Notes under the pieces: generated by a model
What the model was told of the DNA's origin: nothing
Databases searched by the model: none
The model's input: the letters and a program-made list of their open reading frames with translations, nothing else
Position numbers and translations under genes: made by a program
NCBI GenBank assembly: GCA_051294375.1
Contig: CM119269.1
Span: 17,033,143 to 17,097,142 of the forward strand
Length of the DNA stretch: 64,000 bases
DNA from: Paraspadella gotoi
Lineage: Eukaryota; Animalia; Chaetognatha
Reading direction: 5' to 3'
Part shown: positions 3,457-60,348 of the stretch, piece after piece
Position numbering within the stretch: position 1 is the stretch's first letter
Layout of the letters: every line of letters begins with the position of its first letter

Positions 3457-4880
3457 ACTTTGAGACCGTTAAAATTTTTATTTCAAACTCGCAACTGAAA
3501 TTAGCTGCCTGAGTCTGACATATATTATTATTTTAATTTAAGATTTTTTACATAAAATGAGTATATCCGGAAACCAAAAAATCCGACCGTTAGTTAAATA
3601 AGGCTCAGTACTTTAAAAAGTACTTTTATGTTTGGTATGTGTTGCTGTATAAAACTGCAGTATGAGTATAAGATAATCTTTATATTGGTTGTACCAATTT
3701 CTTAGTATGGTGTGAATTGGTCTAAAATGACGAAAAATTTGTAAATTCCAGTTGTTGATTCATTCACTTCTAAGTATATCACGTACTATTAGAGATAAAC
3801 AGGCCACTGAAGAGAAAATATTTACTTGGATTACTTGGAAATTTTAGGAAACCGGATTTCCTGATTATAAGTCTGACAATCGTAAAAAAAATTTAATAAA
3901 ATTAACATTAAGGTTTGATTACAATGATCGCATAGTTAATCAGACTCTATTATATTTCAATAATAATGGTTGCGCTATATTTAGGATCGCCTGTCTTTTA
4001 CTTCGTGTTTACATTCGTATCTGTTAATTGTTCAGTGTTACTTGTGTAGATTATACATGTCTATATATGTTTATCTTAGAATAAATTTCTGTTCTTTTTG
4101 TTAATTGTTGGAGAATCGGTCCTAGCTATATGTTAACATGTATTTATGTTTTATCACTCGTATTATGATTTTTAGTAACAACATTGAAGAGACAGCGGAT
4201 ATTGCATCTAGAAAGAAGCATTAAAAATTGTTACAACTTATAGTAAATGCAAAATAAGGGACTTCAAAAAATTAATTTTATCTTAGAAAGGGATATTATA
4301 TTATTTAGATGAAATTTTAATTCGTACTAACTACTAGAATATTAAGAAAACTATGTTAATATTTAGCAAAAAACTGTTTTCAAATGAAAATAAATTCACA
4401 TAAAAAAATAGCTCGCCAAAATGTCCGACGGTGGGACAAAGTTAGCGCCAAGCAAACGCCGCCCTACTGATGAAACGACCATGAACTGTCGTCGTCGCTC
4501 GGAAAGTCAGTCGCAGACGCGATGACGACGTTTATGATAAACTCGCTGTTTAAAAACATTTTCCTTTTACAAGTTTTCACTGTTTTGCCTACCTCATTCC
4601 TCACCTTTCCAAATCTACAACTGCCAATGCTTAAAATAATATTTTTTTATTCCTGTTCTTTTATCTTTTTTATCTTTTATCTTTTCAGAAAAAATAAAAA
4701 CTAGAAAAGAATTGAAAAAAAAATCTTACAAATACTAACTACAATCAATATTTTTTCCGTCAATCAATAATCGTATTTATAATATAATAATATATTATTA
4801 TATAATATTATATACGACTATGCTTTAAGAGCAATGACTTAACTTAAGTCAAAAGAACAGCGATAATTTTCCTGCGTCAG

Positions 4881-4890: not shown

Positions 4891-5417
4891 GGCAACAAAT
4901 ATTTTCTAGCAGAGGTGTGTCGTGTCCTCCGTTCGCTCCCTTATTTTCGATCGATGTTGCTGACTAAACTATTGAATGAGAATATGAATTATTAAGTGTT
5001 TTAACACTAATAATGTGTTATTCATATGAGCCATTATTTTTTATATATTTGTTATATCCAAAGACTCGCGAATCGTGATATATGATTTAATATTTTATTT
5101 ATTTTTTATTTTAATTTAATATTATATTTTACAGTATTTGTTATATTCTGATAATTTTTCCCCCCGAGAGGTCGGGGGGGGGGTAAAAAAAAAGCGATCG
5201 ATTTCCGCTTGATTTACGGCTTGTTTGACCGGTTTTGTTTTTTCTACTTTTTTTTAATTTGGTTGAAAATCCAGTTTGTTTTCTTTTATTCTCTCGTATA
5301 TCTGCTGCTCGCTCACCTTCTCTCAACGAGCTATTAACCTCCCATTCTTTAATCGGAGAGCTTAAGGTTAAATTAAATTTACGTAAAAGAAGGAAAAAAA
5401 TCTAATTGACAAAACTG

Positions 5418-6779
5418 ATGAACCGGTCCGACGTTTTGTTTAAATGGATATCAGACGTACGAAAGACGTCAGCGTTTTCGTTTCGCGATGATTTGAAATC
5501 CAGCGATGTGGGCCAGTTCTGCTTCGACCTGATTGAATCGTCTGCGGCTGCGTTGTCTAGCGACCTTCCTTTGGTCGACGGCTTTGTCATTAAATGCGAC
5601 GCAATCATCGGCATTGCTTGGGAAAAACTCCACACTGGCACTTGGAAGGACGTAGATATCAAATGGCGACTCCTCTATTCTCACGCGTCGCTACACAAGT
5701 TTTTACACCTGTTTTCGGAAGACTGGGCGTCACTATCATCTTCCGACTACGTTGCGCTGCTTACCCGCGCTCTCCTTACACTCGACATGGCGCTACTTAT
5801 GGGCGGACCCATTGGCGGCGATGTTTTAACGAGATCGGCGTCACGGGTGCACGCGCTTCTCGTTGACGCACCATGCAAAAAAGTTGATGTTCCTTCCGTA
5901 AAAACCGAGCACAACGTCGCTGATTCCACTCCATTGGAGGAGCCTACCCTTTCGTCCCCGACAAATCCTTTCCTCTCGACAAAAAGATTAAAGCTTTCAT
6001 CTTCGCCCCTCCCACGCCTCTCCTGTCCTTCCATGGAGGAATTCGTCCGCGACTTCCTTCGTCCACAACTTCCCTGCATTATCACCGACCTTCAGCTCGC
6101 TTGGCCGGCCGCGAGTGCCGTCGTGGACGCCGCCGATTCTTCATCTCGACGTTGGAATCTCTCCTACCTTCGCCGCGTCGCCGGGCACCGTACGGTGCCA
6201 ATTGAAGTTGGAGCCAAGTACACCGACGACGCCTGGGGACAAAAACTTGTCACCGTCAATCAGTTCGTCGATGAGTACTTCAACGATGACCAAAATAGCG
6301 CCGAGGGCGGCGGAACAACTCGCCGCCCCGTCGGATACTTGGCGCAGCACAATCTCTTCGATCAAATCCCTGAGCTGCTCGATGACATCGTCGTCCCCGA
6401 TTTTTGCTACGCCTGCCTCGACGATAACGAAGAAGACGTGGACGTGAACGCCTGGTTCGGCCCCGCCGGTACCGTCTCTCCTCTTCACTTCGACCCAAAG
6501 AACAACCTCTTGGCGCAGGTGGTTGGTGCCAAATACATCAGGCTTTATTCGCCTTCCTCCTCGCCCTGCCTCTATCCCCACCCGCCTTCCGCCCTCATGT
6601 CCAACACGAGTCGAGTCGACGTGGAGGATGTCGATGCCGACGCCTTTCCGCTCTTCTCCGACGCCCCCTTTTGGGAGGCGCGGCTTCAGGCTGGAGAGAC
6701 GCTTTTTATTCCTGAGCGGTGGTGGCATTTCGTCAAATCGCTCTCTGTCAGTTTTTCCGTCAGTTTTTGGTGGAAATAG
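5418..6779 (+). CDS. KDM8: JmjC-domain protein 5 (KDM8/JMJD5), intronless CDS, about 453 aa
   Basis: Motifs [60 protein letters not shown] and SFSVSFWW, with the HxD...H metal triad. The first ATG is at 5418; an in-frame TAA lies at 5403. Confidence 0.93.
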
Positions 6780-7372
6780 CTGGTTTTAAAGACGTTTTCT
6801 TTTTCTTTTCTTTTCTTTTAAAATTTTCGTTTGAGCATGTACTCCCTGTAAATTTTTGAATCGCCCAATTGAGAGCGCCTACCCCTATTTTAAGATCGGT
6901 CCTAATTTTTCCTTTCCGTAATGAAACGAACTTTCGATTCTTTTATCTTCTTTCTCTTCATTTTCCTCCGAGCTATGAAACTCCAGGATCGCCTTTTGTT
7001 TGTTTCGATCGTTAAATTCTTGTTGATCGTAATAATTTAAATATCGGTATTTAGTAAATTAAAATAGAATAAGGGCTTTTACTAAGAAGGCCGAGACATG
7101 TTTTGTACGCAACTAGGGTTGTTGGTTCTCTAGATCTCGATTTTGTTTGTCCCACAATTTAAGTAATATAAATGAATTTTGCATAACCAATTAACCATTA
7201 CCGTTGCTTCAACCAAATATAAACTTTTTTCAGCGGGCGATACCTTTATCGCAAGATGTGTTATTCGTAAACTCTTTACATGCCAACTTAACGTTCAAAC
7301 CCAAATCCTCATAACAAAACCTTTGGTGCTGTCACACTTTTTTTGCGATTGGAAAGTGGAGAAGTGCGCGCG

Positions 7373-10300
7373 ATGAACGGAAACGGCGCTAAAGTCAATG
7401 GCGAGGGCGAAAATGTTCAAACGACTTCCGACGCTGAATCCAACAGTCGGGTTGTCGACCTTTTCATCAAGGTGAGAGAAGTGACTAAAGTTTGCGAGAC
7501 AGAATTATGAGGTTGTGGCAACAGGAAGACATCTGTGATGGACGGCGTGTGAGGCATCTCCTGACAACTGGTGCTCAGGGCTTTGGACCTGCAGTGACCA
7601 CTCCATGTCACTGGGTTGTTTATGCCAACACCATCACACTTAACTAGCATGACCGTGACGGGATTGAAACCAGAACTCATTGATGGTGAACAAGTACTTA
7701 GCTGTCTTAGCCAATGGGAGGCGAATTTAGGATTTGCCACACATGCACCCCCAAGACAGCACACGAGGATGACCAAGCCCAGAATGACTGAGTGACTGAT
7801 TACGATTACGGATTACGACGAGAGTTTGTCCAACACGCGCAGAGCGAGCGAGTAGGGCATAGGCTTGGGATGCATACCCTTACGTGATGAAGTGAGCGAT
7901 GATGCGCAGCGCTTGCATGTTTGATAGTTTGGCTCACCATTTATGGCAACGGGAAGATGTGTGTGATGCCCAGGGTGTAAGGTATCTCCCGACAGCTGGC
8001 TCTCAGGGCTTTGAACATGCAGTGACCAACCCATGTCACTGACGTTTTTATGCCAACACCATCACACTAAAACAGCATGACCGTGAGGGGATTTTAACCG
8101 AGCACTCACGGTTGGTCCAAGCCAATGGAACTGAGCTGAGTTTCAACAAGCTATACAGGAGGCGAATTTAAGATTCGCATTTAGGATTCGTCACAGGGTT
8201 AAGTTTCTCTGAATATTGTCAAATGAATTTCGTTTTCTTTTTCACATAGGCATCCACCATCGATCCAGACAGAAAGGGAGCGTGCCCAATATGCCAGCGC
8301 TACTTCATGGCGCTCTACCTCAAATACGAAGCAGACGACATCGACCTCGTCGTCACCCGCGTAAAAAATACGAAGATGCAACCTGTTTGTCTCGACGGAC
8401 AAAACTTCCAGGTGACTACTCCTGACAATTTCATCGTCACATCTCGCTCTAATGTTCATATTATATTGTATGACAATGAATATTTAAGGCTCCTTCGATG
8501 GTGCACAACAACGAATTAAAAACGATGGAGCATATTGAAGACTACATCGCCACTGAATTGAGAGGTTTAGACCTCACGTCTACAGATAAAGCGCGCGAAG
8601 CCGTAGCAAACGTTTTCATCGTAAGTATTATTAAGTATTATTAACTTAGATATTCAATTACGCAAGTAACTTTGAATATAAATCTCTCTTTAAAACATCT
8701 TCATAATAGTAAATACTTATTTATTTTTTCTTAACAAATAAGTAAGAAGCGGTAATTAGTTTTAGTGCATACTGCATAGTAAAATTTCTAAATTTAACTT
8801 TAATTAAAATTCTAAAAGTGAGGAACGAACAACATTATACTAATGAACATTTATGTAATAAAAAAATTTATAATAAATTTTACAATTTACGCAGTAGGCC
8901 ATATTTATACTAGTACTAATCCAATAAATGTTAAAATTTCAAAACAGTTTTTTCTAAGATTTTTTTTGCAGATTTGGATTTATCATAAAAAGTTGATAAA
9001 AAGAAATATAACTCTTTTTGAAAAATTCCTTCATTAAGTGGGTCAAAAATTAGAAAAAGCTATATTTTAAGCTGAAAATTAACTTTTTATATATTAAATA
9101 GTTGTTTTAATTTTTAACCCACTTAATGAAAGAATTTTTAAAAATGATTTATATTTTATTTGATCAACTTTTGACGAGGAATTCAAATCTGCGATCAAAA
9201 TTAAAAAAGGCCTATTTTGAAAATTTTCGATTTTATAAGGATAGTACTATATATAAATTTAGCCTACTGCGAAAATTAAAAAAACAAAAAAATATTTTTT
9301 TTTACAAATTAATGTTCACTGATGGTATATTGTTCATAATTGACTTTTAGAATTTCCGTACGTAACTTTCACTACGCTCTACTGCATAGTGTTACAATTC
9401 TTTAGGCTTCAATACTTAAGCTTCTCAAATCTCAATTTTTCTTTCAGACATTCAGCAAGTACATGAGGGACCAAAAGACTGAACCAACAGGACTTCTCAA
9501 AGAGTTGATATTACTCGATAAGTACTTAGAAAAAAACGCAACGCCGTTCCTGTGCGGCGAACAGATGACATTCGCCGATTGCGAGCTTCTGCCCAAATTG
9601 CAGCACATTAGGGTCGCTGCAAAGGTAATTATATTATAATTATACAGTTTACTGTTTTGACCTAACAATTAATACCAATAATGGATTAGTTTAATACTGT
9701 TCCCATTAAAATTTGCATTTGGTCGGCTACCGCTACTATAAAGACTTCTTCTATAGGGCGACACATTTCTATCTAGTCTGAATTCATAAAATTTTATGTA
9801 TTATCTTATTGGCGTTTTTTATCTTGTTAATTATGCATTTGAAAGGCAAAAAAATCAAATATTACGAATAGAAATATGAGACCGACCAAAGTTTAGTCTC
9901 AGTTTCTTTGGTCTTACCAATTTTGATCAAACAGTTCGGTATTTAGGGAAAAAATCAAACTCACCTGTCACCATTTTCTTTTAGTTTTGGTTATTCTTTT
10001 TTATCCCATACTTTGACTTCGATGTGATTATTTACAGTAAGAATAATTTCTGGTCATAAACATACATGTTTATGAAAAATGTATATCTTTAAAATCCTGC
10101 AGTAAATGATACCGTTTTCATTTTATTACTATATAGGCGTACAAGAATTTCGAAATGCCCAGTGATGATCTGACATACGTTTGGAAGTACCTTAAAAATG
10201 CTTACTCACAGAAAGCGTTCACGGAATCTTGTCCAGCTGATCAGGTATTACATGATAATCAGATAATTATTAACTAGCTGTATCATTAGAAAATTCTTTG

Positions 10301-30202: not shown

Positions 30203-32966
30203 CTAAGACAGCGAGCAGCCCCATCTGGATTGATCCGGGTAATGCGGGAAATAGCAGCGGAGATCTTGACCGAAGATCCAAAAAATACCCTCTTTTCCCT
30301 TGTAGCGGTACCGCACTTCGGTTACGGGCACAGCGGTCAGAGCGTGACGTTGTAACAGCGGGCGTTCGTACTCCATCAGAGCGGCATGCTCGTCCAACAG
30401 TTCCTGTAGTTGAAGGGGGGCAATAAACATCTAGGGCGAATTGCATAAAATTTCTCACGGCCTTGCTACACTGCCAGAATAACAACTCTGGGCAGGTGTG
30501 GGGGGCAGGGTTGTGACCGCAGACAGCGTGTGGAAATTAATACTCTTGTTTAATGCTCTTAACCCCTGCATAGCTACCTAGTTTATTCGGTAATCTCATA
30601 CATACCTGTCCAAAGTCAGGGGCAAGATAGCTTATTTATTAAATGAATGGATAATTTTATATTGGTTGTACCAATTTCATAAAATTCAGCTCCTTGTATT
30701 TGATGTTAGTGCGGAGTACAATAAGTATTCCCGATCTAATACTTAAGGGAGTGGTCTTTTCATACAATTGAAACATTCTTTGAAATATTATACCACTTCA
30801 TTGATAGGGAAGCCAGGTACTCTGGGAGTGAATAAACGAGACTGAGAGAGAGTCTTGATTGAAACCTTGCAGGGACCTGCTATGTCATTATCTTGTAAGA
30901 GTGATGGAGGCCTTAAACCACCAAAGCCTGTCCAAAGTCAGGGGCAAGATAGCTTATTTATTAAATGAATGGATAATTTTTTATATTGGTTGTACCAATT
31001 TCATAAGGGAATATAATTTGACTAAGGTCTTGTGATCGATTAGTATTGTTATTGTTAGTATTTTTTTTTTTTCGTGGTTAAGTGAACATAAATATTAAAG
31101 TAACCATCGTTAAAAAAAATTGAACCATAGAAACTTCGGTAACCGATCCTTTTTGTCTCACCTTGGATTTCGCTTCGACTTGCGGCGCAGAACGCCGGCG
31201 AATGTGCGTCACCGTTGTTCGAGTTTCTTCGAAGACGACGACTCCCGTTTCGCCGCGTAAAACTTCTGGCGGAATAGAAGACGTCTCGAAGGCGTGGTCG
31301 CTTTTGTGTACGTGGAAACTGATGCCGAGCATGACGCAGTATTTTAGCCGGCAACTTCCCCCGCATCCCTTGCACTTTTGTCTCCCGTCGCCTCCGCACG
31401 TGGCGCATTTCTTCTTGCCGCGGCCATGGCAGAAGGCGCACTTGGACCGGCGACCCTAGAGGTCGGAAGATATCGGTTAAGGATAAGGGGCAAGTAACAA
31501 TTTAGGTTAAGTTTTAACTTTCGCCGACCGCGGTTATGGCGGCTTTGGAAAAATTATTTAAAAATAATTAAAAAAGAAAATATTACTTAATTACCCTAAC
31601 CCCTCCCTAACCCTGGTCGGCGAATGTAAAAGTAACCCACAATTTTAAATCATCGCCTTCACGATCACACTTGCCTGCCTCGTTGTTCTCCCCGAACCGT
31701 GGCACTTGGTACACTTGACGTTCCTCTTGGCCTTGCACTTGACGCACTTTGCGGCGCCGCGTCCGCGGCACTGCACGCAGTTTCTCAACGACGCCGTGTG
31801 TGGCACTTCAACGTTGGAAGCGTGGGGTGTGAAGGCGGCGGGGGGTCGTGCGGGGATGGACCAAGGGTCGGGCGGATCTCCGTTCTCGGGCCCGTTGACC
31901 GACTGACCCTCGAATGGATCTGAGCTCCAGAACACCGTCCGCGATTCGGCGAACGATTCGACAAAGTAGTGCAGCGCTGGCGACGGGGTCACCGAGATAT
32001 ATCGCATCTTCTTTGCAGCCGCGGTGCCCCAGCAACGATTGCTCTTCACCATGAGGAGCACCGCTTTTCTGCAAGAAAAAGTAGCGAGAGAAAATTTTGG
32101 AGGTGGTGGATAGGCTAAATGTGAAGGAATGAGCGGGAAAAAAATTATTATGCTAAACAAACATGAAAGAAGCTAGAAGCTAGCATGAAAGAAATCTCAA
32201 CAATCATGGCTAAAAGTAATCAGCCCCTTGCCCTGCTCTGTGTTCAGCATTCGCACGACCGTTTTCATTGTTGAATTTTTTCTTCTCTGCGCTAGCCCCT
32301 CTACCGTTTGTCAACGACTACTAGTACTATGTACATAACACTATTAACAGTCCTACTAAATTCTAATCCTCAGTCTCTATAAACCTATTAAGTTTTATAC
32401 CTAATCGTCCTCTCGTCGGGCACGAGGTCGGGCACTTCCAGTCGCCTCCCGCCCGCCAAACCCTCCAGCGAGCTCTTCAGAACGGGCGGCGGTGGCGGCG
32501 GCGCGTTGGCGTATTCCAGTACGTAGTTCTCCAACGCCTCCGTCTGGCGTTCATCTTCGCTGTCGTACTCTTCCTCGTAGTCGTCGTCCTGCAGGAAACT
32601 CCCGTCGACGCAGCTGCTGCGACCGCTGCGCGATTCCAACGCCGCTTCGTCGTCGTCGTCGAAGTCGTCGTCATCCTCCTCCGCGTAACGACTTTCGAAG
32701 TCCGCGTTTTCCTCGTCCTCTTCCTCGCTGTTCAACGGCGCCATCTCCGCGAGCGTCGGCTCCGCCATCTTGCGTTCGCCTACGGAATTCCGCGCTCGGT
32801 CGAGGAGGTTCGAGTCGAATCTATTGAAGGTGGCGCCGTGGTCGAGTTGCTTCGTAGAGAACGTGACGTTTTTGACCGTGGATGCGGAAGAGTCACTGGC
32901 GGCGCTGTTGGGGTCGTCGTCGGCGTCGTCCTCTTGACGTCGAATGGCGGGAAAATGATTGTTCAT
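30203..32966 (-). CDS. SSUH2: SSUH2 homolog (DnaJ-type CxxCxGxG zinc fingers, C-terminal CaaX), about 484 aa; exons 32966-32401, 32068-31675, 31455-31162, 30403-30203
   Basis: Motifs CWGTAAAKKM, ESFAESRT, GPENGDPPDPWSI and VEVPHTAS. Six CxxC motifs, then LLQRHALTAVPVTEVRY and YPDQSRWGCSLS*. Exon phases are consistent. Confidence 0.88.
30815..31005 (+). repeat. Dispersed repeat ending in the hairpin ATTGGTTGTACCAAT; other copies or fragments at 30606-30680, 40478-40657, 1755-1783 plus 2539-2572, 3684-3698 and 21477-21491
   Basis: Directly alignable blocks CTCTGGGAGT.AATAAAC, AGAGTCT.GATTGAAA, GTCCAAAGTC.GGG.CAAGATA.CTTATTTATT and the terminal hairpin. Confidence 0.75.
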
Positions 32967-35900
32967 TCCTCAGTTCACTCGTTAAAAAAAAAGGTTGTTC
33001 TGGATTAAAATGAACATGGTTGTACGCAATTTAATAAAAAAATTCAGAATGTTGTTAAAATAAAATATCAAAATGTAATTTTAATAGACATTAGACAGTT
33101 TACGACGAAAATTAAAAGAAGTTACTCGTTTACTTTTTACTATCCTTTTGTTTTCAAACTTTCTTCTCGTTTTCCACAAAAATTTTCTGGCCCCTCGAAG
33201 CCCGGGGCCTTCAAAAGACCGCGTTGGTCCCGCAACTGCCCGACGCTTTGCGAGATCCTGGGTCTTCACGCCCTATCTCGGCCCTCCCCCCAAAAATCTT
33301 TCGCCGGGGATAACGAGAACCGCCGGACCCATGGGCGCGGGAAAATTGAGAGAAGATGCCGGGAGACCTTGGGAGGGAGAAGAAGGGGAGAGGAGAGAGA
33401 GAGAGAGAGAGATCCGCTGGGTCTTTTATCGCTTTATCGCAATTTTTAGTGAAGGAAACGAGAAAATATCGATTCTGAAGACTTGGATCTTTTTCCAGGA
33501 CAAAGATCGATGGTGCGGGCGAAGAAATATTTCGCTTTTGATCTTTTTTTTTTAAGTTTTTATATTCGAACCTTTTGAGCGTGTGTGATTTTAGTTAATT
33601 TTTTTTAAATAAGTTAAACCACCCTTAACCGAATTGTTAACCGTTTAAAAAATATAATATAAAAATAGCAATTAAATTTATAACAAATATTCGAAGAAAT
33701 AATACGAAATATGCACACAAAAAATTTTTCACTAACGAAAAATGAAGAAATGAGACGACGCTAGAGGGAAAACAAAATTCAATGGATTAACAAAACACCA
33801 ACCGGTAGAAGCGGTCATCGGTCATCGTTCATCGGTCATAGAAATTTTAAAAAATCCAGTAATCTCGTTGTTTGTTAGAGAGACTAAATTCGTGCGTGTT
33901 CCTTTTTATCGAGATACATATCCGCCCCTTTCGACTCTATCTCTCTTTCTCTCTCTCTCAACTCTATCTCTCTCTCTATTCTCGTTGGGCCTTTCTCGAG
34001 TAACCAACGAATCTGCCCCATAGACTCGTCTTCCCCACGAAGCTCTCTTTGTTCGATCAAACAAAAATATTGCACAAGTCCTCGCCCTCGTTTTTTTTGA
34101 AACTCTCTCTCTCTCTCCCTCCCCTCGCTCTCACTCTTTTTTTGAGTCAGGGCCAGGAAACTCGTTTTTTTACTCACCAATTTGAAGTCTTTCGCCGCTG
34201 ATCTCGACGAAGGACGACGTGAGTAAAATTGACGTAATTGACGGATTCGAACGCGAATTCGGCCTTGGAACGTCACCCGACGTCCGTTTCGCTAAAGGGC
34301 CCGATCTCTGACGCAAACCTTTTCGCCCATATTGATCGATCGATTGATTTTGATTGATTTTTTTTGATCGAATATTTAAACTTTTGAGATGCTCTTTTTT
34401 TTTTCTCCAAGTTTCGTCACGAAAGAGTTCAAAGATTCGTGATTAATTATCACCATGAGCGGTTAATCCTTTCGTTTTTTCTTCTTTGTTTTACAGTCGA
34501 TCCCCTGCCCCTCCCTTCACCTCCATTCTCTGCTTCTCGATCTCTTCTTTTGCCTCTTTATTATTACCCACTACCCAGCCCTTGCTCCGACCCTCCCCCC
34601 TGCCCCACCCCAAGCGGCCCCATAACCATTCGCGAGATTTATTTATATCCGAAGCAGTCGTTTGCTTTTGATTCTTCTTTTTACGAGCGAGATAAAAAAA
34701 CAAACAAAATTCATTCGTTTTTGCGTTTGAAGCAACGCAGATTATATTTATTATTGTTGCAGGGAATCGATATGTCTAGTCAATTATTATTACGAGGCTT
34801 ATGCTTTTATCCAGCTATTCTTAGTGGGTAACGGTAATTATCTCAGTTTAAATAATATAGAGTTAAGCTTTCAGAAAAAAAAAAAGCTTTTCGTGCAACT
34901 TGAGACATCCCTCTGCGTAACTTAATAAGAACAGCGCTTCAAAATAAAAATTACTTTGCACGTGTTTTAGCCACGAGAGACTTTTTTACGAACTATTTTA
35001 TATATAAACTGAAAACTTTCAAACTCAACTTCTCTTTGTCGTCTTCTGTGTCATATCCGTGTCATCGAAACTGGGCGAAGAACGTCGAGGCCTCCTCCTC
35101 GTACTCGTTCCTTTTGATTGATATCGCTTTTCTTTTGTCCCTCCCCTTTTTCTTCTCTCTCTCGAATATCTTCTTTCACTACTTCGCTTTCACGTTGACG
35201 AGAAAATATTCGAGATGTGAATCTGAGAGATTGTAGAAGACGAAAAAATAATGATGGTAGAATCAGGGAGATAGTATTAAACAAATCTCTAGTTTTAAAA
35301 CATTAAACAAAATTTATCCTTGCATTTAAGAGTCTGCCTACATGTACGAATAATAATTTTAAAATTCTTGTTAGCGACATAAAAATAATTTAACTTTGAG
35401 CCCATAGAATTGGCGAATTGTAACATCGACGATGAAAATTCTTCCTAATTTCGAGATAAGGCATCCTTTATAATATATATATAAATTATATATTTCAAAT
35501 TTTATGAATTTTGGGATAAGGCATTCTTTAAAATTATATATTTCATGTTTTATGAATGACAATTGCTCCTTTCTTCTTTTTTTTCTCTCTAGAGGACTCT
35601 AGCTGTTTTGTGAAATATCTTTATCTTGGTAGAAAAACAAATGAACTTTACGCCACTAATTACACCGTGTTTGCGGCCTTGCCTTAGACTTTTCAAATAA
35701 ATAAGAGTGACATGGTCCATTAAATCTGTTTAAAAAAATGTAATTTCTAGGTTGCGTTTGTATCGATTACCACTTTTTTCGGGAAATATATTTATCCAAG
35801 TCAATACAATACAATAGAGAATTTTCTGCGATGTTATCATTATCATATTCATTATCATATTTATTATCCTCTTCTCCCTCATCTTCATCTTTCTTCCTTA

Positions 35901-36099: not shown

Positions 36100-42440
<6,341 letters not shown>

Positions 42441-43377
42441 CCTATACACGGTTTATTAATTCTCTGTTGTCATCCCGGCGTCAAGTCATAAGTGTCATCC
42501 ATGACACCCTGTCTCTCTTCATTAGTCATCCCCCCCCACTTCCGAGTCCCGTCCCGTCGCCGTCCCCGCTCGGCAGAAGAAACACCTAAAATCGTCGAAC
42601 CCGACGAACGATTCCAAGTCGAATGGCCTCTCCCACATCTTTCCACCCCCCCCCCCGACGTAGCACCCTGTCCTAATTGCGCGACATTCGTTATTAATGG
42701 AGTCTATACTCCCGCCCCCCCCCCTCCGCCCACTCGAATCCCTCGCAGGAATCTTGTTCCGTCGGCGTTCCCATCGCGGGAGATCCTTCCCTGAGTTGTG
42801 CGGTCGAGACGTTACGGAAGATGGCGTCCGCGCGGTTGTGGGAAAAAAAAAAGGCAAAAAACAAAAGAACCGTCCCCTCGCGAGCGCGCGAGTGGTTGAA
42901 GGAGAGGACGAGGAGGGGGTTGTTGAGAATTGGGTAGTGGTGGACGAGAAAGAAAGAGATCCAGTTTTTCGTTTTCGACGTTTTAAAAGTCGTAATTGTC
43001 ACGCTTTACGAAGCGTTTTCGAAATTATGGGATTGGATTTGTATTCCATTTTCACTCTAAAAAACGATTAAAAAGTGAGTTGAGGAATCTCTCGTCGAGC
43101 AAACGTCGCCGTTTACGATGAAAACGAGATGTTTCTGACCTTTGCATCGTGATTCCGACTCGATGTCACGTGATTCCTACTCAATGTCGCAGTGATTGAG
43201 AGTCCTCCGACTATGTTCTAACTTATGGAAGGTGATTTTAATTTCAAATTTGAAATTAACGTTTCAAGAGATCGATTTTTTTATTTTGGTTCCATTCGAC
43301 GTAACATCGCGATTATCTGAGATAAATCCCGCACCTTTTCATGACTAAATTTTTCTTTTGACCCTTGCTTTGTTTAT

Positions 43378-44102
43378 TTACTTTCCCGCTTTCCTTTCTT
43401 TTTCCTTTTCGTTACTCAACTCCGGTCCCTTCACCCGCGCCCCCGCCTTCCACCGCCCAGCTTTCAAAACTTGAAGTTGGCCGAATAGTTTGGCGGCCAA
43501 CCCGAACTTGTTGTTGATGTTATCGATCGGCCTCGCCGGCGGACCGAACCGTCCGGAACCTCTCCAACTGCCACCCGAACGGCTGCTGAAAGTCCGTCCT
43601 CCGTCCGATCTTCCATCCATAAACTTGGTTTTTGCGTCTCCGGCCAACGAGTTTTTTTCCTTCTGAAAGATGTCTGCAAAGGGTCGCGGGGATTAGGCGC
43701 GCAGCCATCGACGTTAGAAAATATCGAAACAAAAAAAGAATCGTCATGCCCACATGACGCAATCTTACCCGGAAACGGAGGATCGTAGAGGAGCAAGCGC
43801 TTGCGTTTGATCGCCCGCTGACGCGCCGCTTCTACGTCTCCCTCCAAGCATTGGAAGAGGCGTCCGATCTCGTCTCGGTACCATGCCCAGTTGTGATCGA
43901 ACTTGTGAACGCCCAGCTCGACTTTACGGATGTAGTCCGCCCTGGAAAAATAGTTGGTGTACTTAGGACATGGTTTATTATTTATCCCATATAATAGCCC
44001 ATTTAACCAGTTCTTGTCTGAGGAAACGTAGTCGACTGCGGGCTCATTGTCGCCAAGGGCTTTGGCGTTGTAGTTCTGGTTCATAATCCTGTAGCTGTCC
44101 AT
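43378..44102 (-). CDS. C20orf85/LLC1 (CIMIP1)-like ciliary protein, about 187 aa; exons 44102-44008, 43941-43769, 43673-43378
   Basis: The spliced product contains DYVSSDKNWADYIRKVELGVHKFDHNWAWY, with the VxxDxxW-x13-[WF]xxNW spacing of the LLC1 family, and later RFGPPARPIDNI. Introns are GT-AG, and an in-frame TAG lies upstream of the ATG. Confidence 0.6.
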
Positions 44103-47100
44103 CTTTTCCTATTCTCTTCCCCTTCGGTGGCGGAACGAAAGTCGAGCCTACGAAACCTGAAAGCGTTAGAAGTTTCTTTTTCACGATTTTTCAAGGATAT
44201 TCTATCATCATTCATGACAAATGAGATCAGTCGTGTTGAGTGTTTTGATGTGGTTGTGAAGTAGTTGGTTAGACTGCGTCCGTCTTTCTGTCACTCCGTC
44301 CTTCCGTCTATCCGTCTCTACGACCTCCGTCCGTCTACGTTCTACGTCTACGCTTGATGACAGAAAACGTATTTGCTTATCTCGAGGCCCCTGAATAACT
44401 ACTTTTTATTGATATGACTTATTACTTACCTAATGATAACGATACTTATCGCTCCAATATTCAATATTCATATTCAATATTCAACGGCAAAAATACATTA
44501 ACGTAAGTGTTGCTACTTTTATTAAAAAGAGTATGATTTGAATGCTTTTGAGCCATACTGTATGGCATTTAAAAAATTTGGTTTGGGAATTCGAAGCCCA
44601 TATTGATTTAAAAACTATTCTAAAAAACCGTTTCCCGCTGTATACTGTCCTTTTTTTTCATCCATTCGGAGTGACGCGTATTTTTCACGCATCGTCATCC
44701 ACGAGCGAGATGCAACAACGCCAATGAACTAATTCAAAAAGATAGCATTGAAGAAATCGATTTTAGTATAGAAGCGAAAAAAAAAAAGTTTTGAGATGAA
44801 CTTGAAGTTAATAAAAAAAGTGTTTCCAATTTTGGCGCCGCCTGAGTCTCTGGAAAATTGCTTAGTCAGGGGCACCAGCCTAGAATTATTTGAAGATAAA
44901 GGCTGGAGCAATCATTCTGGCACAGGAACCAAATTGTTTAGCTGGACTTAATAGTGGGCAAAAAACAGCAATATATATGTAACACTGGGCCTTAAAAATT
45001 TTAATACAAAGAAGTTGTTCATTGCACTCGATTTTTTTAAAGCAAATACGATTCGCTGGACAAATTTGGCGATTTTACCAATCTTTGTGAGAAAAGCAGA
45101 TTTTGAGAGTTGTTAATGATAATTGATTAAAAGTAATAAATTTATACATAGCAAAGTTGTCAAGTAAGTTATTTATCATTTTAAAAAATGAGTAAGTCTA
45201 TTGCTTACAACTATAGTAAAGTATGGCAGTGGTTTCTTGTTGCGGGGTTCATTGGGGATTTGGGCTCACAGGGTAGGAGATAAATTTTTCCCAGGATTGA
45301 GAGCATTTATCAGAGGGATACAAAAGTTCTCCAGAACGAAGCATTTATCAAGAAGGGAGAGAACTATTCGCCCAGATGAAGGGCATTAAGGTGGAATGCG
45401 AGTAAGGAGTTAAAGGTTTACCTCTCGGTATTTAGTTACTTAAGTAGCATGGACTAGAAATGAAAATATGAAACTAACTTTTTATAACTATTACAGACAC
45501 ATGTAGGGCATTTTTCCACTATTGCAAATTATAATATGGCAAAAGAGATTAAGATACATAATTTAATGTGGATTTTTTTTCTTTCTCTCTTTATGTTCCT
45601 TTCTATCCCCAAAATGTTATAATTGCCAAATGAAATGTCTTTCAATTTAAAGATAAATTAAAAAAATTATTTATATTTCATAGATTGTAAAGGTATTTTT
45701 TTTGGGCTTGCAACAAATCAAGCATTGAAAATAACTTAGCAGAAGACATGAAAAAGAGATAGTAAATTGTGAGGTAGTGAGAAAGATTTAAAGAGAAAAA
45801 AATGTGGCCCTGGGCTTCCTTGATCGCAAACAGCTCAGATTTTTGTTTAATTTGCCATAATAGTCTGGGAAGAGACAATGATTATGCTTCTAATTAAAAA
45901 AACCCAAGTTGATGAATGGGTGATAAGGTGTCAATAGTCGGGTCATCAACTAATGTATCGATTTTATTATTTAATTGTAATTAACTTTGTAGAGACCTGT
46001 TATAAATTATTCCTTATATGTCCTATCATTCACGCAGATGTTTTTAAAATATGGAGAATGAAAGAGAGTTTATGCCTGATACAAATCAAATTTTAGCCTG
46101 ACTCCTAGTGAATCTATGTCATGAGGTGAGAGAAGAGAGAACGATGTAACACGGGTATTTTTGGTTTCTCATTTGCAGTTGAATGAAATGAAAAATCAAA
46201 ACAAGATATTTTCCCATTCATTGTTTTTGGCAAAATTTTAAATGATAGGTCTTCCTTTTCCAAATTTTTATAGCGATTGGTTTTGTCGAGTTTTTAAGTT
46301 TTGTTTTCCCACATGCAAATAAGAAGTTGGTAATTGGGAGCAGAATCTTATTTTGGGAAGCAAAATTAAAACTATGAAAGTTGGTGGGTGGCTGGCAAAT
46401 TGTTGGGCTAAACTGCCAGTTTAGCACTTATTATAATTAATAATAAGGCCATTCATAGACATTTATCAAATTAGTAATTTGAAAACTTTGAGTCTTTCCC
46501 CACACAATATTTTCATTTTATCTTCAAACCGATCTGATGAAGTTTCGTTGATGAGCTACTGGTAGATGAGGTTAAATCCAGCGATATAGCCCATTTCCTG
46601 TGAGAAAGCATTTAATAGACGATTGGGCGACTTATTTTCTTTTCTGCTAGTAGAGATGGCATCCAAAACATCTCCCGTTTCTTGACATGGGATTCACATA
46701 ATATATGTTTGTTATTGATAAAGAACGTTTAGGAGTAGTGATCACCAGGGAAAAAAAAACTAAAAACATGGATCCAAAAACACGCAGGACGTTTCTGATT
46801 GAATCTAAAAACAGGACTGAAAAGTATTTCTCGTTTCCCTCACTTAGAATGCGACTTATTAAAATATGGTGAAAAATTGACTGGACAGAAGAAAAAATTT
46901 GAGGGAATGCCGGGTGAGAGAGAGACGAAGTCATTAGCATTGTTTCTCATTTTTAGAAGAATGCTTCATTCAACAGAAAAGAGAGAGAGAAAGAGAAGAG
47001 AGAGAGAAAAAGAATATAATTTGTTTAAATAAATCAAATCAAATAAGAGTCTGCCATTTACCTATAAAATTAAATTTTTAATGGAGTTTTGATTTGTTAA

Positions 47101-48535: not shown

Positions 48536-48634
48536 AAAAAAGGTTTAAGGGTGAAGTGTCCAGGGTTAACATTAGGGATAAAGAGGCTTTAGAGTTAGAA
48601 TTAGGTAAAGGATTTGATATTGGCTTTACAGATG

Positions 48635-50897
48635 TATTCCTGTGCAAAATTTATTCCTGTGCAAATTTATTCCTGTGCAAATTCATTCCGGTGCAAATTC
48701 AGTCCTGGTGGCAAATTGCATTCCTGTGTAAATCAATCCTTTGCAAAATTCATTCTTGTGCAAATTCAATCCGTGTGCAAATTCAAGTCCTGGAGCAAAT
48801 TCAGTTCTATGAGCTAATTCATCCCGTGAGAAAATCATTCCTGTGCAAATTTATTCGCTGTTGGCAAATTCATTCCTGTGCAAATTCATTCCTGTAAGCA
48901 AATTCAAATCCTGGTGCAATTCTTTATGTTAGCAACAAATCTATGCCCCTGTGCAAATTCAATTCCTAGTGCAAATTTTTTCATGATGTTATGATTCATC
49001 CTGTGCCAATTCATTTCTGTGCAAATTCTTGCCTGTGCAAAATTCATTCCTGTGCAAATTCATTCCTAGTGCAGAATTCCAAACCCTGTGCAAATTCATG
49101 TCCTGTGCAAATTGCAGTTCCTGTGCAAATTTAATTCCTGTGCGGCAAATTCCATTCCTTGTGCAAAAATTGCATTCCCTGTGCAAATTTAATTCCTGTG
49201 CAAATTCCATTCCTGTGCAAATGCCCAGCCCTGGTGCAAATTCATTCCTGGTGCAAAATTTATTGCGCTGTGCAAATTCATTCCTGTGCAAATTCCAACC
49301 GCTAGTGCAAATTCAATTCCTGTGCAAATTCATTCCTGTACAAATTTATTCCTTGGGCAAATTCATATCCTTTGTGCAAATTTATTCCTGTGCAAATATT
49401 CCTGTGCAAATTCATTCCTGTGCAAATTCATTAACTGTGCAAATTCATTCCTGTGCAAATTAATTCCTGTGCAAAATTTCATTCCTGGCAAATTCAATTC
49501 CTGTGCAAATTGAAATCCGGTGCAAATTTCACTTTGCTGTAACAATTTAATCCTGTGCAAAATTCATTCCCTGTGCAAATTCAATCCTGTGCAAATTCAT
49601 GTCTAGTGCAATTTATTCAGTGCACAATTTATTCCTGTGCAAATTTATTCCTGTGGCAAATTTATTTCCGCTGCAAATTAATTCCTGTGCAACTTCATTC
49701 CCTGTGGCAAATTCATTGCCTGTGGCAAATTCATTCCTGTGCAAATTCTTTCCTGTGCAAATTCATTTCCTAGTGCAAATTCAATCTGTGGGCAAATTCA
49801 TTCCTGTGCAAATTCATCCTTTGCAAATTCATTCTTGTGCAAATCAATCCTGTGCAAATTCAATCCTGAAGCGAAATTCATTCTTGAGCTAATTCATCCC
49901 TGAGAAATTCGATTCCTGTGCAAATTTGTTCATGGTGCATATTCATTTCCTATGCCAATTTTTGCCTGTGTGCAAAAATTTATTCCTGTTGCATATCATT
50001 CCTGTGGCAGAATTCATTCCTGTTACGAAATTCAATCCTGTGCAAATTCCTTCTGTTTTAAAATGTTATCCCTTTGCAAATTAATTCCTGTGAAAACTTG
50101 TTCTTTTAAAAAAATGTATTCCTGTGCAAATCTAGTCCGCTGTGCGAAATTCATTCCTTGTGCAAATTTTTCAATGTTGTAATATTCAATCCTGTGCCAA
50201 TTCATTCCTGTGCAAATTTATTCCTGTGCAAAATTAATTCCTGTGCAATTCAGTCCTGTGCAAAATTCATTCCTGTGCAAATTTCAACCCTGTGGCAAAT
50301 TCCATTCCGTGGCAAATATCATTCCTGTGCAGATTTATTCCTGGTGGCAAATTCCATTCATGTGCAAATTCATTCATTGTGCAAATTGAATTCCTGTGCA
50401 AATTCATTCCTGTGCAAAGTTCAATTCCTGTGCAATTTCAACGCCTGTGAAATTCATTCCTGTGTAGATTTATTCCTGTGGCAAATTCATTCCTGTGCAA
50501 ATTCCATCATGTACAAATTCATCCTGTGCGAAATTCATTCCTGTGGCAAAAGTTCATTACTGTGCAAATATTAACTCAATGTGCAAATTCCATGTTTGTC
50601 ACAAATTTTAATCCTGTGCAAATTCATTGTGCCGCTGTGCAAATCCATTCCTGTGCAAATTCATTCTGTGCCAGAAATTTTATTCGCAAGTGCAAATTTA
50701 TTCCTGTTCAAATTTTATTCCTGTGGCAATTTATTACTATGAAGAATCTATTCTATGCAAATTCATATCATGTGGCAAACTTATTCATGTTCATATTAAA
50801 TCCTGTGCAAATTCATATTTGTGCAAATTCATGTTCTGTGCAAAATTCGTTCCCTGTGCAAATTCTTGCCTTTTCAGAATGTAATTTCTGCGCAAAA
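48635..50897. repeat. About 16-bp satellite array (CCTGTGCAAATTCATT)n, roughly 2.3 kb
   Basis: More than a hundred imperfect units. The array explains the spurious Cys-rich ORFs in this interval. Confidence 0.92.
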
Positions 50898-50939
50898 TTT
50901 ATAACTAAGTGATAGGATTATTTTTGTTAGTGTGAAAAA

Positions 50940-52779: not shown

Positions 52780-54200
52780 ATTCGTTTTCTTTCTTTGTTT
52801 TTGGTTTTCTTTCTTTCGCTTTCTTATCTTTCTTTCTTTCTTTCTTTCCTTTATATGGGTGATAAATTCTTGTCGTTTCTTGTCTTTTCTTTTCTTTCCT
52901 CTTTCCTCGGCTTGCTGCTGTCTGTCTGTTTCTTACTTTCTTTCTTTATTTCTTTTTCCAGCGTCTCTCTTCCGGAAACCGGGGCGCCAAGGGAAATTTT
53001 CGCTGCGACGGCATATAGCGAAGAGATGAGCTGAGACTAGGAGGGTCACACTCGGAAGGTAGCGAAAAGTTGATTAGTTTATGGGAGAGTTAAGTATATA
53101 ATTCGCTGGAGGTTAATTAAGGCCTGCGAAAGAGAATATTGTCATTTCCTTCTTCCTCCGATTTCATAAGAGTCCGAGATCTGTGGTGACTCGTGAAAAA
53201 AGGATCACGTGGTGTGAACAGGAGTTTCACTAAATGCAGACGAATTCCTTTGCTGTCAACATAAACGGACGCGATCGGTCCGTAAGAAGACCAAAGGATT
53301 TACAGCGCACGAGTGGAATTGGCAGTTCGTTTCTTAATACCTAGTCAGGTTCTGTTGTGTGTATATTTTTTGGCGGCTAATAAAAATCTCCTTTGGCCGT
53401 GGAATTTTTTCTTAATCTTTAGAAACGTATATTCAAAAATCTTCGCGTCGGCCCAGTATGATTCGGCGTCCCCTTAATCGCGCCTTATGCCTCCATTTTC
53501 CCTCCTAATGGTCCTATATTTCTCGATTACCGGCCCCCGGCCCTTTTCGAATTTTTTTTATTTTTGAATCCATTTTTAATTCAACGCCATCGACTGACTG
53601 GCATTTAGTGACGGTTTGTTTAGAACTTCTCCGTTTGAATTTCTGCACCTTTTCTCTTCAGTCGTTTTGCATATTTTGTAATCAAAATAACGTTTTTTTT
53701 TCCGCAGATTTTGACGGAACGAGGAATTTTTTCTCTTCGTTCAGAGTAGGGTGAAAAAAAAAGTTACAAACTATTAGTGTAGGACAGAAATTCTTTCTTT
53801 TTTAAGATCTCCAGCTCGCTTCCATTAACCAAATTGGATCTTCTTTCCAGGTAACAGAAAGGGACTGAATCCAAAGTTCGGCAGCTAAGTTTTCGTGGTG
53901 CCATCCTCCAATTTTTGTAATCGATACGTCGAAAAAAGTCAGCTCACACAGTCGAACCGTCATATCGACCATACGCGGCTTTTTCACCTCCCTCTGCCAC
54001 GGCGTTTGCCATCAGCTCGCTGCGGCCCCGCCCTACCGCCGACTCCTCATTGCCCCGCTCCTTCGGTTTGTCAGCGAAACGAAATGGCGTTTCCTTCCCG
54101 TTAACGTGTACTTATCTCTTTTACGATTGTCCGACTCGCCTAGGATATAGATTTGTCACTTCTCTCTTTCTCCTGCTCTCTCTCTCTCTCATCTCTCTCA

Positions 54201-54235
<35 letters not shown>

Positions 54236-54256
54236 GTTCCTCCTCTCTCTCTCCTC
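52780..54256 (-). other. Indel-rich inverted copy of about 58690-60440; probable assembly artefact
   Basis: For example, GAGACTAGGAGGGTCACACTCG at about 53033 is the reverse complement of CGAGTGTGACCCTCCTAGTCTC at about 60170. A third fragment at 54282-54368 lies between N gaps. Confidence 0.7.
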
Positions 54257-54392
54257 NNNNNNNNNNNNNNNNNNNNNNNNNAAATCTCGTCGATCTCGAC
54301 TCTTGAAAATCGGAGGAAGAGAAATGGATATTCTTTTGGCAGGTTAATTAACCTCAGGAATTAATTANNNNNNNNNNNNNNNNNNNNNNNNN

Positions 54393-55737: not shown

Positions 55738-55774
<37 letters not shown>

Positions 55775-55872
55775 ATCTCTCTCCTCTTCTCATTCTTTCT
55801 CCAATGATAAACGGTTATGAATAGTCAATAATAGTCTAAGTAATAGTATCCTTTCAATCTTCATTTCCGTTA

Positions 55873-55904
<32 letters not shown>

Positions 55905-60307: not shown

Positions 60308-60348
<41 letters not shown>

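What the first reader, a model, noticed from the sequence alone, without database searches (positions are those of the whole stretch)
7514..8195. Candidate animal LTR retrozyme carrying twister ribozymes in both LTRs
Seen: a 682-bp non-coding element antisense to CLIC intron 1. It has two LTRs (254 and 228 bp, TGTG...GCCAYA), a PBS 2 nt after the 5' LTR, a G tract before the 3' LTR, near-identical 4-bp flanks (ACCC/ACCT), and a twister fold at the same position in each LTR. Known: LTR retrozymes are described in plants, with hammerheads in each LTR that release circular RNAs; described animal retrozymes are non-LTR hammerhead repeats; twister cleavage leaves 5'-OH and 2',3'-cyclic phosphate ends that RtcB-type ligases can join. 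Inference: cleavage at 8050/8049 and 7622/7621 would release a 428-nt monomer containing the PBS and PPT. This monomer could circularise and be copied by a Gypsy-type helper. I am not aware of a described twister-based LTR retrozyme in animals. This copy is old and decayed.
Basis: partly seen in the sequence, partly recalled or inferred. Interest (0 to 1): 0.92.

Follow-up and report, generated by a model that had tools for sequence, protein, structure and literature searches.

The report
Twister-ribozyme mini LTR retrotransposon in animal
A worn copy of an abundant, gene-less jumping element sits in an intron of an unnamed animal, and its two terminal repeats each hold a predicted self-cutting 'twister' RNA just behind a tRNA-type promoter-like motif, so the family likely spreads through a small RNA circle as plant retrozymes do, a design my searches did not find described in animals.

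Summary
A 682-bp non-coding element (7514-8195, minus strand) fills most of CLIC intron 1. It has two LTRs 82% alike, a TGG-led PBS, a G-rich PPT and 3-of-4 matching flanks. Public DNA runs hold hundreds of related contigs with sharp ends at both LTR termini, so this is a high-copy family. The twister fits the type-P5 permutation: general-base GA and pseudoknot strand lie upstream of U^AA. All 7 broken pairs of that model in the two LTRs fall where most other copies carry a pairing letter, so the breaks are decay of this copy. These make it a Helenus-type (TRIMp3) element; I found no twister in the published Helenus sequences I searched. Best model (0.5): Pol III transcript, two twister cuts, a circle of roughly 430-460 nt, and a Gypsy-type helper. 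Main rival: one cut only trims a linear RNA. Cleavage, circles and the helper are untested, no genome was held, and this copy's RNA folds no better than shuffles.

The parts
7514..8195 (-). whole non-coding LTR element (TRIM size), antisense in CLIC intron 1
   Evidence: family ends at these places in DNA runs (table 7)
7942..8195 (-). 5' LTR, 254 bp; 13-bp duplication near its start; lacks about 18 nt between the A and B boxes
   Evidence: gapped contigs 8023-8178
7514..7741 (-). 3' LTR, 228 bp, with perfect 8-bp inverted ends; lacks about 30 nt of U3 that the 5' LTR and other copies carry
   Evidence: loose ends at 7719 in 13 contigs of X5
8196..8199 (-). 5' flank, 4-bp target-site-duplication candidate
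   Evidence: 3 of 4 bases match the 3' flank
7510..7513 (-). 3' flank, 4-bp target-site-duplication candidate
7927..7939 (-). primer-binding-site candidate, TGG-led, 2 nt after the 5' LTR; primer tRNA not identified
   Evidence: other copies cover it at 5,686-7,602 depth against 150 on a single-copy bin, with no difference listed there
7742..7752 (-). polypurine-tract candidate (G run and short spacer, as in animal Helenus)
   Evidence: 12 contigs differ at 7747 towards a longer purine run; compare supplement of PMC10886601
7702..7713 (-). Pol III A-box-like motif of the 3' LTR (counterpart in the 5' LTR starts at 8124)
   Evidence: 1 mismatch; A-to-B spacing 43 nt, matched by 5 of 5,000 shuffles of the LTR
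7660..7670 (-). Pol III B-box-like motif of the 3' LTR, in a T-arm-like hairpin
   Evidence: 1 mismatch at a place where most other copies differ; exact box in loose-end rows at 7641
8089..8099 (-). B-box-like motif of the 5' LTR
   Evidence: 1 mismatch, at another position than in the 3' LTR
7567..7649 (-). type-P5 twister of the 3' LTR: P2' 7639-7636, general-base G 7635, T1' 7633-7631, cut 7622/7621, P2 7619-7616, T2 7615-7614, P3 7613-7592, P4/L4 7591-7576, P5 arms
   Evidence: broken pairs in P2, T2 and P5
7995..8077 (-). type-P5 twister of the 5' LTR, cut 8050/8049
   Evidence: broken pairs in P2, P4 and P5
7625..7661 (-). upstream hairpin that pairs the general-base strand (counterpart 8053-8089); competes with the twister fold
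   Evidence: mean pair probability 0.76 and 0.59, against 0.0 for P2
7623..7630 (-). P1 region: only a 2-bp hairpin, but a near-palindrome that can pair with the same stretch of the other LTR (8051-8058)
   Evidence: 8-bp duplex, -4.8 kcal/mol
7844..7887 (-). internal stretch shared by many copies; packaging-signal candidate
   Evidence: depth up to 26,934 against 150 beside it; its hairpin is not significant, 71 of 500 shuffles fold as well
7472..8249 (+). host CLIC intron 1 (GT..AG, 778 nt)
   Evidence: run X9 covers both exons and has zero depth on intron-only bins

Best explanation
This is an old, decayed copy of a high-copy, gene-less LTR element whose LTRs each hold a tRNA-type promoter-like motif followed by a predicted type-P5 twister ribozyme; intact copies are likely transcribed by RNA polymerase III, would be cut once in each LTR, and the released unit would be closed into a circle that a Gypsy-type helper likely copies back into the genome. 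Shown: the LTR-PBS-PPT anatomy, the family with sharp ends, the twister pairings and their better state in other copies, and the A/B-box spacing. Inferred: (1) Pol III starts in the 5' LTR upstream of the ribozyme and reads through, since no T tract follows the B box as it does in most Helenus. (2) The twisters take the place of the terminator and set both RNA ends. (3) The doubly cut unit (428 nt here, about 460 in fuller copies) has no terminal repeat and keeps one split LTR, so joining its 5'-OH and cyclic-phosphate ends by an RtcB-type ligase rebuilds a whole LTR with its promoter. (4) The upstream hairpin keeps the ribozyme mostly off, which would protect the circle. (5) tRNA-primed reverse transcription round the circle and integration by a Gypsy-type helper give full-length copies and solo LTRs with 4-bp duplications. 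This copy is probably inactive: both ribozymes are damaged and it lies antisense in the intron.
For: Family: 961, 951 and 447 contigs laid in three DNA runs; summed depth at the ribozyme core is 433,403 against 272 on the single-copy flank in X2. The tool warns this is no copy number; I read it only as the order of a thousand. Sharp ends with unrelated AT-rich flanks at 7516 (16 contigs in X2, 14 in X4), 7941 (12 in X4) and 8178 (16 and 17). PBS and PPT regions are covered by other copies at 5,686-7,602 and 3,599-4,083 depth against 150. Twister: Rfam P5 E 0.0022; top two descriptor scores of the window; general-base G, cut-site AA and T1 present in both LTRs; 7 of 7 broken pairs include a place where 83-99% of laid depth in X2 carries another letter, which pairs; none of the 40 listed rows that holds a majority breaks a pair of the model; one P5 pair (7649-7572) differs on both sides. 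P1 and P2 imperfections are tolerated in tested twisters (PMC11662667). A/B pair: 5 of 5,000 shuffles. Animal Helenus have these boxes, 4-bp TSDs and Gypsy-like PBSs (PMC10886601). Plant retrozymes give the precedent for double cut, circle and a hairpin that blocks the ribozyme (PMC4918200); RtcB closes animal retrozyme RNAs in vitro (PMC7229834).
Against: No cleavage, circle or Pol III transcript was observed. The natural monomer folds no better than shuffles (z 0.76 linear; z 0.71 circular and 56% paired), whereas plant retrozyme RNAs are about 70% paired; decay may explain this but I could not test it. Secondary-structure prediction gives P2 no weight against the upstream hairpin, so cleavage may be poor. 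Both Rfam scores are under the gathering thresholds. Covariation could not be measured, because only two copies were readable as sequence; table 3 shows 40 of 106 rows and is unphased. The B box alone is not above chance in the window (16 matches, 21 expected), the A/B test was made after the fact, and ARAGORN finds no tRNA. Lack of T runs is uninformative (P 0.78). TSD is 3 of 4. No listed contig spans a second full-length copy, and the contigs across the PBS and PPT junctions have under 31 letters on one side. Contigs of run X9 read through the predicted cut site (records 27, 31), strand unknown. At least one other copy has lost the general base and T1. No helper was found, as no genome was held.
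Confidence: 0.5

Rival explanations
1. A Helenus-type TRIM in which the twister only trims a linear RNA. Slow or partial cleavage cuts one LTR per transcript, giving the 3' end in place of a Pol III terminator, or a defined 5' end. The RNA keeps a terminal repeat of about 110 nt and is copied by ordinary LTR reverse transcription, with no circle.
For: Geometry allows it: a transcript from the A box of the 5' LTR to the cut in the 3' LTR, or from the 5' cut through the end of the 3' LTR, is terminally redundant. The upstream hairpin predicts inefficient cleavage. The monomer is not unusually structured. Twisters and HDV-like ribozymes serve as end-formers of linear retroelement RNAs (PMC8501958; PMC6765202).
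Against: Both LTRs of a young copy carry the same ribozyme, so double cuts should occur whenever single cuts do. Doubly cut RNA is a dead end unless it is circularised. The P1 near-palindrome offers a way to couple the two cuts.
Confidence: 0.27
2. The twister is a passenger. It was captured once with the tRNA-derived head, for example from a ribozyme-bearing SINE, and is mostly folded off; the element moves as an ordinary Helenus.
For: Helenus LTRs are proposed to arise by SINE insertion into an LTR (PMC10886601). Scores are under the Rfam thresholds, P2 is not predicted to form, and a copy without the general base is present in X4 and X9.
Against: The majority state of the family pairs at all 7 places where this copy is broken, and no majority difference is listed at the catalytic positions. 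This shows the parent elements were intact when they spread.
Confidence: 0.13
3. Not an LTR element: two neighbouring units of a tRNA-headed, ribozyme-bearing SINE or non-LTR retrozyme (like the schistosome repeats), or of a short inverted-repeat element, 200 bp apart.
For: A tRNA-type head followed by a ribozyme is the layout of the schistosome repeats (PMC4918200). The two units differ by distinct indels in U3, the TSD is imperfect, and many laid contigs suggest a TA rather than CA 3' end.
Against: Sharp TG..CA/TA ends with 8-bp inverted repeats, a TGG-led PBS at 2 nt, a PPT, and other copies covering both internal junctions. The intron returns to 92 nt when the whole is removed. TA ends occur among published Helenus LTRs.
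Confidence: 0.06

Closest known systems
Helenus / TRIMp3 (Kojima 2024, PMC10886601; main text parts 1-4 of 6, supplement parts 1, 5, 6, 7, 10 of 11 and three term searches read)
   Same: TRIM under 1 kb; A box and B box motifs in the LTR; PBS and PPT; 4-bp TSD in animals; Gypsy helper proposed; families with about a thousand LTRs and fewer internal parts.
   Different: In most Helenus LTRs that I read, the B box is followed by a T-rich tract and a short end. Here about 145 nt with a twister follow it. The paper reports no ribozyme ('twister' 0 hits); none of the 14 'aagccc' places in its supplement looked like a twister L4 by eye; this PBS is not among its listed ones.
Plant LTR retrozymes (Cervera, Urbina, de la Pena 2016, PMC4918200; passages read)
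   Same: Non-coding, a ribozyme at the same place in both LTRs, PBS and PPT between the cut sites, 4-bp TSD, solo LTRs, ribozyme strand hidden in a hairpin.
   Different: Twister (type P5) instead of type III hammerhead; animal host; unit of 430-460 nt instead of 600-1000; PBS is not of the tRNA-Met type; Pol III boxes; circles not shown here.
Animal non-LTR retrozymes (PMC7229834, PMC7761336, bioRxiv 10.64898/2026.07.22.740005; passages read)
   Same: Animal host, small ribozyme-bounded unit, RtcB-type closure plausible; some work as ribozyme dimers.
   Different: Those are tandem repeats with type I hammerheads, lack LTR, PBS and PPT, have longer TSDs and are tied to Penelope-like elements.
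T-variant twisters of Perere-3 in Schistosoma mansoni (PMC8501958; passages read)
   Same: Twister with a weak P1 in an animal retroelement.
   Different: One P1-type ribozyme at the 5' end of an autonomous non-LTR element, with no LTRs and no circle.
Type-P5 twister ribozymes (Rfam RF02684)
   Same: Strand order, U^AA, general-base GA, 3-bp T1, 2-bp T2, 10-nt L4.
   Different: P1 is only 2 bp with a 4-nt loop; P3 is present; score 23.4 is under the gathering score 37.6.

Membership tests
Helenus (TRIMp3) | non-coding LTR element under about 1.3 kb with two LTRs | tested here: met
   682 bp, LTRs 254 and 228; the only ORF of 120 aa or more over it is a 131-aa stop-to-stop frame
Helenus (TRIMp3) | tRNA-derived A and B boxes in the LTR | tested here: met
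   A/B pair 43 nt apart, 5 of 5,000 shuffles; exact B box in other copies; no full tRNA by ARAGORN
Helenus (TRIMp3) | PBS complementary to a host tRNA 3' end | tested here: inconclusive
   TGG-led and shared by other copies; no host tRNA available; tRNA-Arg(ACG) is a recalled guess from no call
Helenus (TRIMp3) | PPT next to the 3' LTR | tested here: met
   G run plus short spacer, like animal Helenus; purine-richer in 12 other contigs
Helenus (TRIMp3) | 4-bp TSD in animals | tested here: inconclusive
   3 of 4 in this old copy; paired flanks of other copies not readable
Helenus (TRIMp3) | Pol III transcription (not validated for Helenus either) | not testable with these tools
   only contigs of one probable RNA run
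Plant LTR retrozyme | type III hammerhead in each LTR | tested here: not met
   no hammerhead at E up to 10 on either strand; twister instead
Plant LTR retrozyme | self-cleaving ribozyme at the same place in both LTRs, with PBS and PPT between the cut sites | tested here: met
   as a fold only
Plant LTR retrozyme | accumulation of circular monomer RNA | not testable with these tools
   contigs show no ends or strand, and a circle junction equals LTR sequence
Plant LTR retrozyme | highly self-paired monomer (about 70%) | tested here: not met
   56% paired, z 0.71, for this decayed copy only
Twister ribozyme, type P5 | N^AA cut site and general-base G followed by A | tested here: met
   both LTRs
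Twister ribozyme, type P5 | pseudoknots T1 (3 bp) and T2 (2 bp) | tested here: met
   T1 3 of 3 in both (one wobble); T2 2 of 2 in the 5' LTR (one wobble), 1 of 2 in the 3' LTR with the break at a place private to this copy
Twister ribozyme, type P5 | P2 and P4 stems, 10-nt L4 | tested here: met
   P2 3 of 4 in each; P4 3 of 3 and 2 of 3; breaks at private places
Twister ribozyme, type P5 | P1 closed as a hairpin | tested here: inconclusive
   2 bp only; near-palindrome; P1 reported dispensable (PMC11662667)
Twister ribozyme, type P5 | Rfam gathering score | tested here: not met
   23.4 against 37.6 bits for this decayed copy
Twister ribozyme, type P5 | self-cleavage | not testable with these tools
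   needs an assay
Twister ribozyme, type P1 | general-base GA and T1' strand downstream of P4 | tested here: not met
   Rfam alignment places C at the general-base position and T1 does not pair; its P2 has an unflagged break in the 5' LTR
Animal non-LTR retrozyme | tandem units with type I hammerhead, no PBS or PPT, long TSD | tested here: not met

The most novel reading that the evidence does not exclude
The first animal LTR retrozyme, arisen independently of the plant ones: a Pol III-driven, tRNA-headed TRIM that swapped its terminator for a permuted twister. The two LTR copies of the twister pair through a palindromic P1, so both cut only when a full-length transcript is made, releasing a unit that is ligated into a circle and copied by a Gypsy helper.
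Probability: 0.3. Interest if true: 0.9.

Novelty: new variant of a known kind. Interest (0 to 1): 0.76.

Why it matters
The papers I read split retrozymes into plant LTR elements and animal non-LTR repeats, both with hammerheads. A twister-bearing LTR family in an animal would break both rules and show that copying through a ribozyme-made circle arose again, from other parts, on an LTR backbone. It would join two groups described apart (TRIMp3 and retrozymes) and offer an answer to how a short Pol III transcript rebuilds a whole LTR. It would also give a second biological role to eukaryotic twisters, after the schistosome RTE case. The main steps can be tested cheaply: cleavage of a 100-nt RNA, an RNase R northern, and one-LTR against two-LTR transcripts.

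Tried and rejected
No genome is held, so no copy-by-copy alignment or helper search. Rfam at gathering score: nothing. Type-P1 topology rejected. No ribozyme on the plus strand; a plus-strand descriptor hit at 8095 scores 20, which shuffles reach 1.0 times per window. No second copy in the window. A metagenome scan gave 1 locus, L001, which shares only the short pattern and lacks P3, P4 and L4: chance. Viral contigs: 0. No RNA holder on record was listed; X9 behaves as spliced RNA, but family depth in it cannot be told from slight DNA carry-over of a high-copy repeat, and its contigs give no ends or strand. Differences in depth along the LTR were not used as a measure of conservation, because this copy's own changes affect what is laid. 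T-run scarcity is uninformative. The internal hairpin is not significant. ARAGORN: no tRNA. The count of structure pairs was given a structure string out of register; its result is void, and two rows could not show covariation anyway. Earlier findings by place and sequence: nothing. The KDM8 search did not place the host: best hit unnamed at 48%, best named hits bivalves at about 45%. Literature searches; none listed a paper on a twister in LTRs or an animal LTR retrozyme. Not seen: Roth 2014, Repbase, the supplementary twister lists of PMC11662667, parts 2-4, 8, 9 and 11 of the Helenus supplement (covered by term search only, which misses motifs split by line ends), and bioRxiv supplements; any of these could hold a prior case.
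Full report
Setting. The window is from an animal without close named relatives: the neighbouring KDM8 protein has its best hit at 48% (unnamed) and named hits at about 45%. No genome is held. The element lies antisense in intron 1 of a CLIC gene. Run X9 covers both flanking exons at depth 185 and has zero depth on intron-only bins, as spliced mRNA would. Without the element and one 4-bp flank the intron is 92 nt.

Observation. The 3' LTR has 8 of 8 inverted terminal bases and the 5' LTR 5 of 8. TGG begins 2 nt after the 5' LTR, a G run precedes the 3' LTR, and the flanks match in 3 of 4 bases. The U3 parts differ more: the 5' LTR lacks about 18 nt between the promoter boxes, and the 3' LTR lacks about 30 nt nearer the start. 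Other copies carry both stretches (gapped contigs at 8023-8178; loose ends at 7719 in 13 contigs). The family's cut-to-cut unit is therefore probably near 460 nt, not 428.

Family. I laid 4 of the 9 listed runs and 2 of the 9. In the three DNA runs 961, 951 and 447 contigs lie on the 951-bp stretch at 80% likeness or more. Summed depth peaks at 433,403 against 272 on the flank in X2, 221,411 against 104 in X4, and 20,893 against 14 in X5. The tool says this is no copy number; I take from it only the order of a thousand. Contigs leave the element for unrelated AT-rich sequence at 7516, 7941 and 8178, that is at the LTR ends (the last behind this copy's 13-bp duplication). The loose-end rows suggest that many copies end in TA; such ends also occur among published Helenus LTRs. 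The PBS region has depth 5,686-7,602 and the PPT region 3,599-4,083, against 150 on a bin held by this copy alone; one internal stretch (7844-7887) reaches 26,934. No listed piece spans a second full-length copy, and the pieces across the internal junctions have fewer than 31 letters on one side, so the LTR-PBS-PPT arrangement in other copies is supported but not proven.

Ribozyme. Rfam gives nothing at gathering score, twister-P1 at E 0.0014 and Twister-P5 at E 0.0022 for the 3' LTR, and a partial hit at E 6.8 for the 5' LTR. The P1-type alignment puts a C at the general-base position and has no T1. The P5-type reading has the P2' strand, GA and the T1' strand upstream of U^AA, a 3-bp T1, a 2-bp T2, a 7-bp P3, a 3-bp P4 with a 10-nt L4, and two overlapping ways to close P5. 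A descriptor of that core ranks the two LTR sites first in the window; 150 shuffles give 0.107 sites of that score per window. Three pairs are broken in the 3' LTR and four in the 5' LTR. All 7 include a place where 83-99% of the laid depth in X2 carries another letter, and by eye that letter pairs in 7 of 7. No listed majority difference breaks a pair of the model, and one P5 pair differs on both sides. Only 40 of 106 rows were shown and they are unphased, so this is evidence that the family was intact, not a covariation test. One minority contig (X4, X9) has lost the general base and two T1' bases. In tested twisters, P1, P2 and most P4 imperfections are tolerated and T2 mismatches are not (PMC11662667, section 32 part 1); the 3' LTR of this copy has a T2 mismatch.

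Two features bear on regulation. An upstream hairpin pairs the general-base strand with mean probability 0.76 and 0.59, while P2 gets none (pseudoknots are not modelled). Plant retrozymes hide their hammerheads in the same way (PMC4918200). P1 is only 2 bp, but the stretch is a near-palindrome and the two LTR copies can form an 8-bp duplex of -4.8 kcal/mol. An earlier AI note on a Naiad twister prompted this check; it is a possibility, since P1 is reported to be dispensable.

Promoter. About 40 nt upstream of each cut site lies a B-box-like motif with one mismatch, at a different position in each LTR; loose-end rows show the exact box in other copies. In the 3' LTR an A-box-like motif starts 43 nt before it. 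Such a pair arises in 5 of 5,000 shuffles of the LTR, and the window holds 2 such pairs against 0.27 expected. The box patterns are recalled, the test was made after the fact, each box alone is at chance level, and ARAGORN finds no tRNA. These are the marks of Helenus, TRIMs with tRNA-derived LTRs, 4-bp TSDs in animals and Gypsy-like PBSs (PMC10886601). In most Helenus LTRs that I read a T-rich tract follows the B box near the LTR end; here the twister does. The paper names no ribozyme in Helenus, and term searches of its supplement found no twister L4.

Mechanism. Most likely (0.5): Pol III transcribes an intact copy from the 5' LTR and reads through; both twisters cut; the unit has 5'-OH and cyclic-phosphate ends (established chemistry of this class) and no terminal repeat; an RtcB-type ligase closes it, as shown in vitro for animal hammerhead retrozymes (PMC7229834); the join rebuilds one whole LTR; a tRNA-primed Gypsy-type RT and integrase make new copies. 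All of these steps are inferred. Against: the natural monomer is 56% paired with z about 0.7, and no RNA evidence could be had. The first rival (0.27) needs only one cut per transcript, which leaves a terminal repeat of about 110 nt for ordinary LTR copying. A passenger ribozyme (0.13) and a non-LTR origin (0.06) fit less well.

Comparison and novelty. By anatomy it is a Helenus-type TRIM, with PBS and TSD inconclusive. It is not a plant LTR retrozyme by definition, having no hammerhead, but it is built to work like one. [quoted passage not shown] The twister-retroelement links in those papers are to RTE-type non-LTR elements (PMC8501958; PMC7761336). I also read passages of PMC6765202, PMC10085705, PMC6154101, PMC4558846 and bioRxiv 10.1101/2022.07.19.500677, and the abstract, passages and section 35 of PMC11662667. 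Ten searches listed no twister-bearing LTR element and no animal LTR retrozyme. The library lacks most subscription papers and Repbase, and I did not read the supplementary twister lists of PMC11662667.

Verdict. A real, high-copy family with a new combination of known parts: new variant of a known kind, interest 0.76. The circle is the open step.

Noticed in passing
window 5406-6779 (+): Intronless KDM8/JMJD5 reading frame; best hit an unnamed protein at 48%, named hits at about 45%.
   Followed up: partly
window 41376-44660 and 54803-58606: A duplicated stretch of over 3 kb, about 82% alike; the 214-aa frame at 43464-44108 has no Pfam match.
   Followed up: partly
window 48620-50910: A 2.3-kb decayed short-unit satellite, in the only 4-kb bin with strong CpG depletion (0.36); most bins are at 1.0-1.5.
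   Followed up: no
window 52781-54367 and 59358-60424: Inverted repeat pieces about 75% alike, possibly a decayed DNA transposon.
   Followed up: no
window 7980-8093, run X9 record 32 and one contig of X4: A family copy that has lost the general base, two T1' bases and the base before the cut is present at depth 70.6 in the probable RNA run.
   Followed up: no
window 7970 to 7718 joint, run X2: One contig joins the last 30 nt of the LTR to its first 24 nt over 12 other letters: an LTR with its middle deleted.
   Followed up: no
window 7547-7668, run X9 records 27 and 31: Long contigs (1,292 and 1,823 nt, depth 216 and 339) carry LTR pieces, so some copies seem to lie inside host transcripts.
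   Followed up: no
window 31055-32969 (-): Exons with CxxCxG repeats that recall an SSUH2-like gene (name recalled; Pfam gave only a weak zinc-finger hit).
   Followed up: partly
L001 152-172: Chance match of the search pattern in an unrelated metagenome contig.
   Followed up: yes
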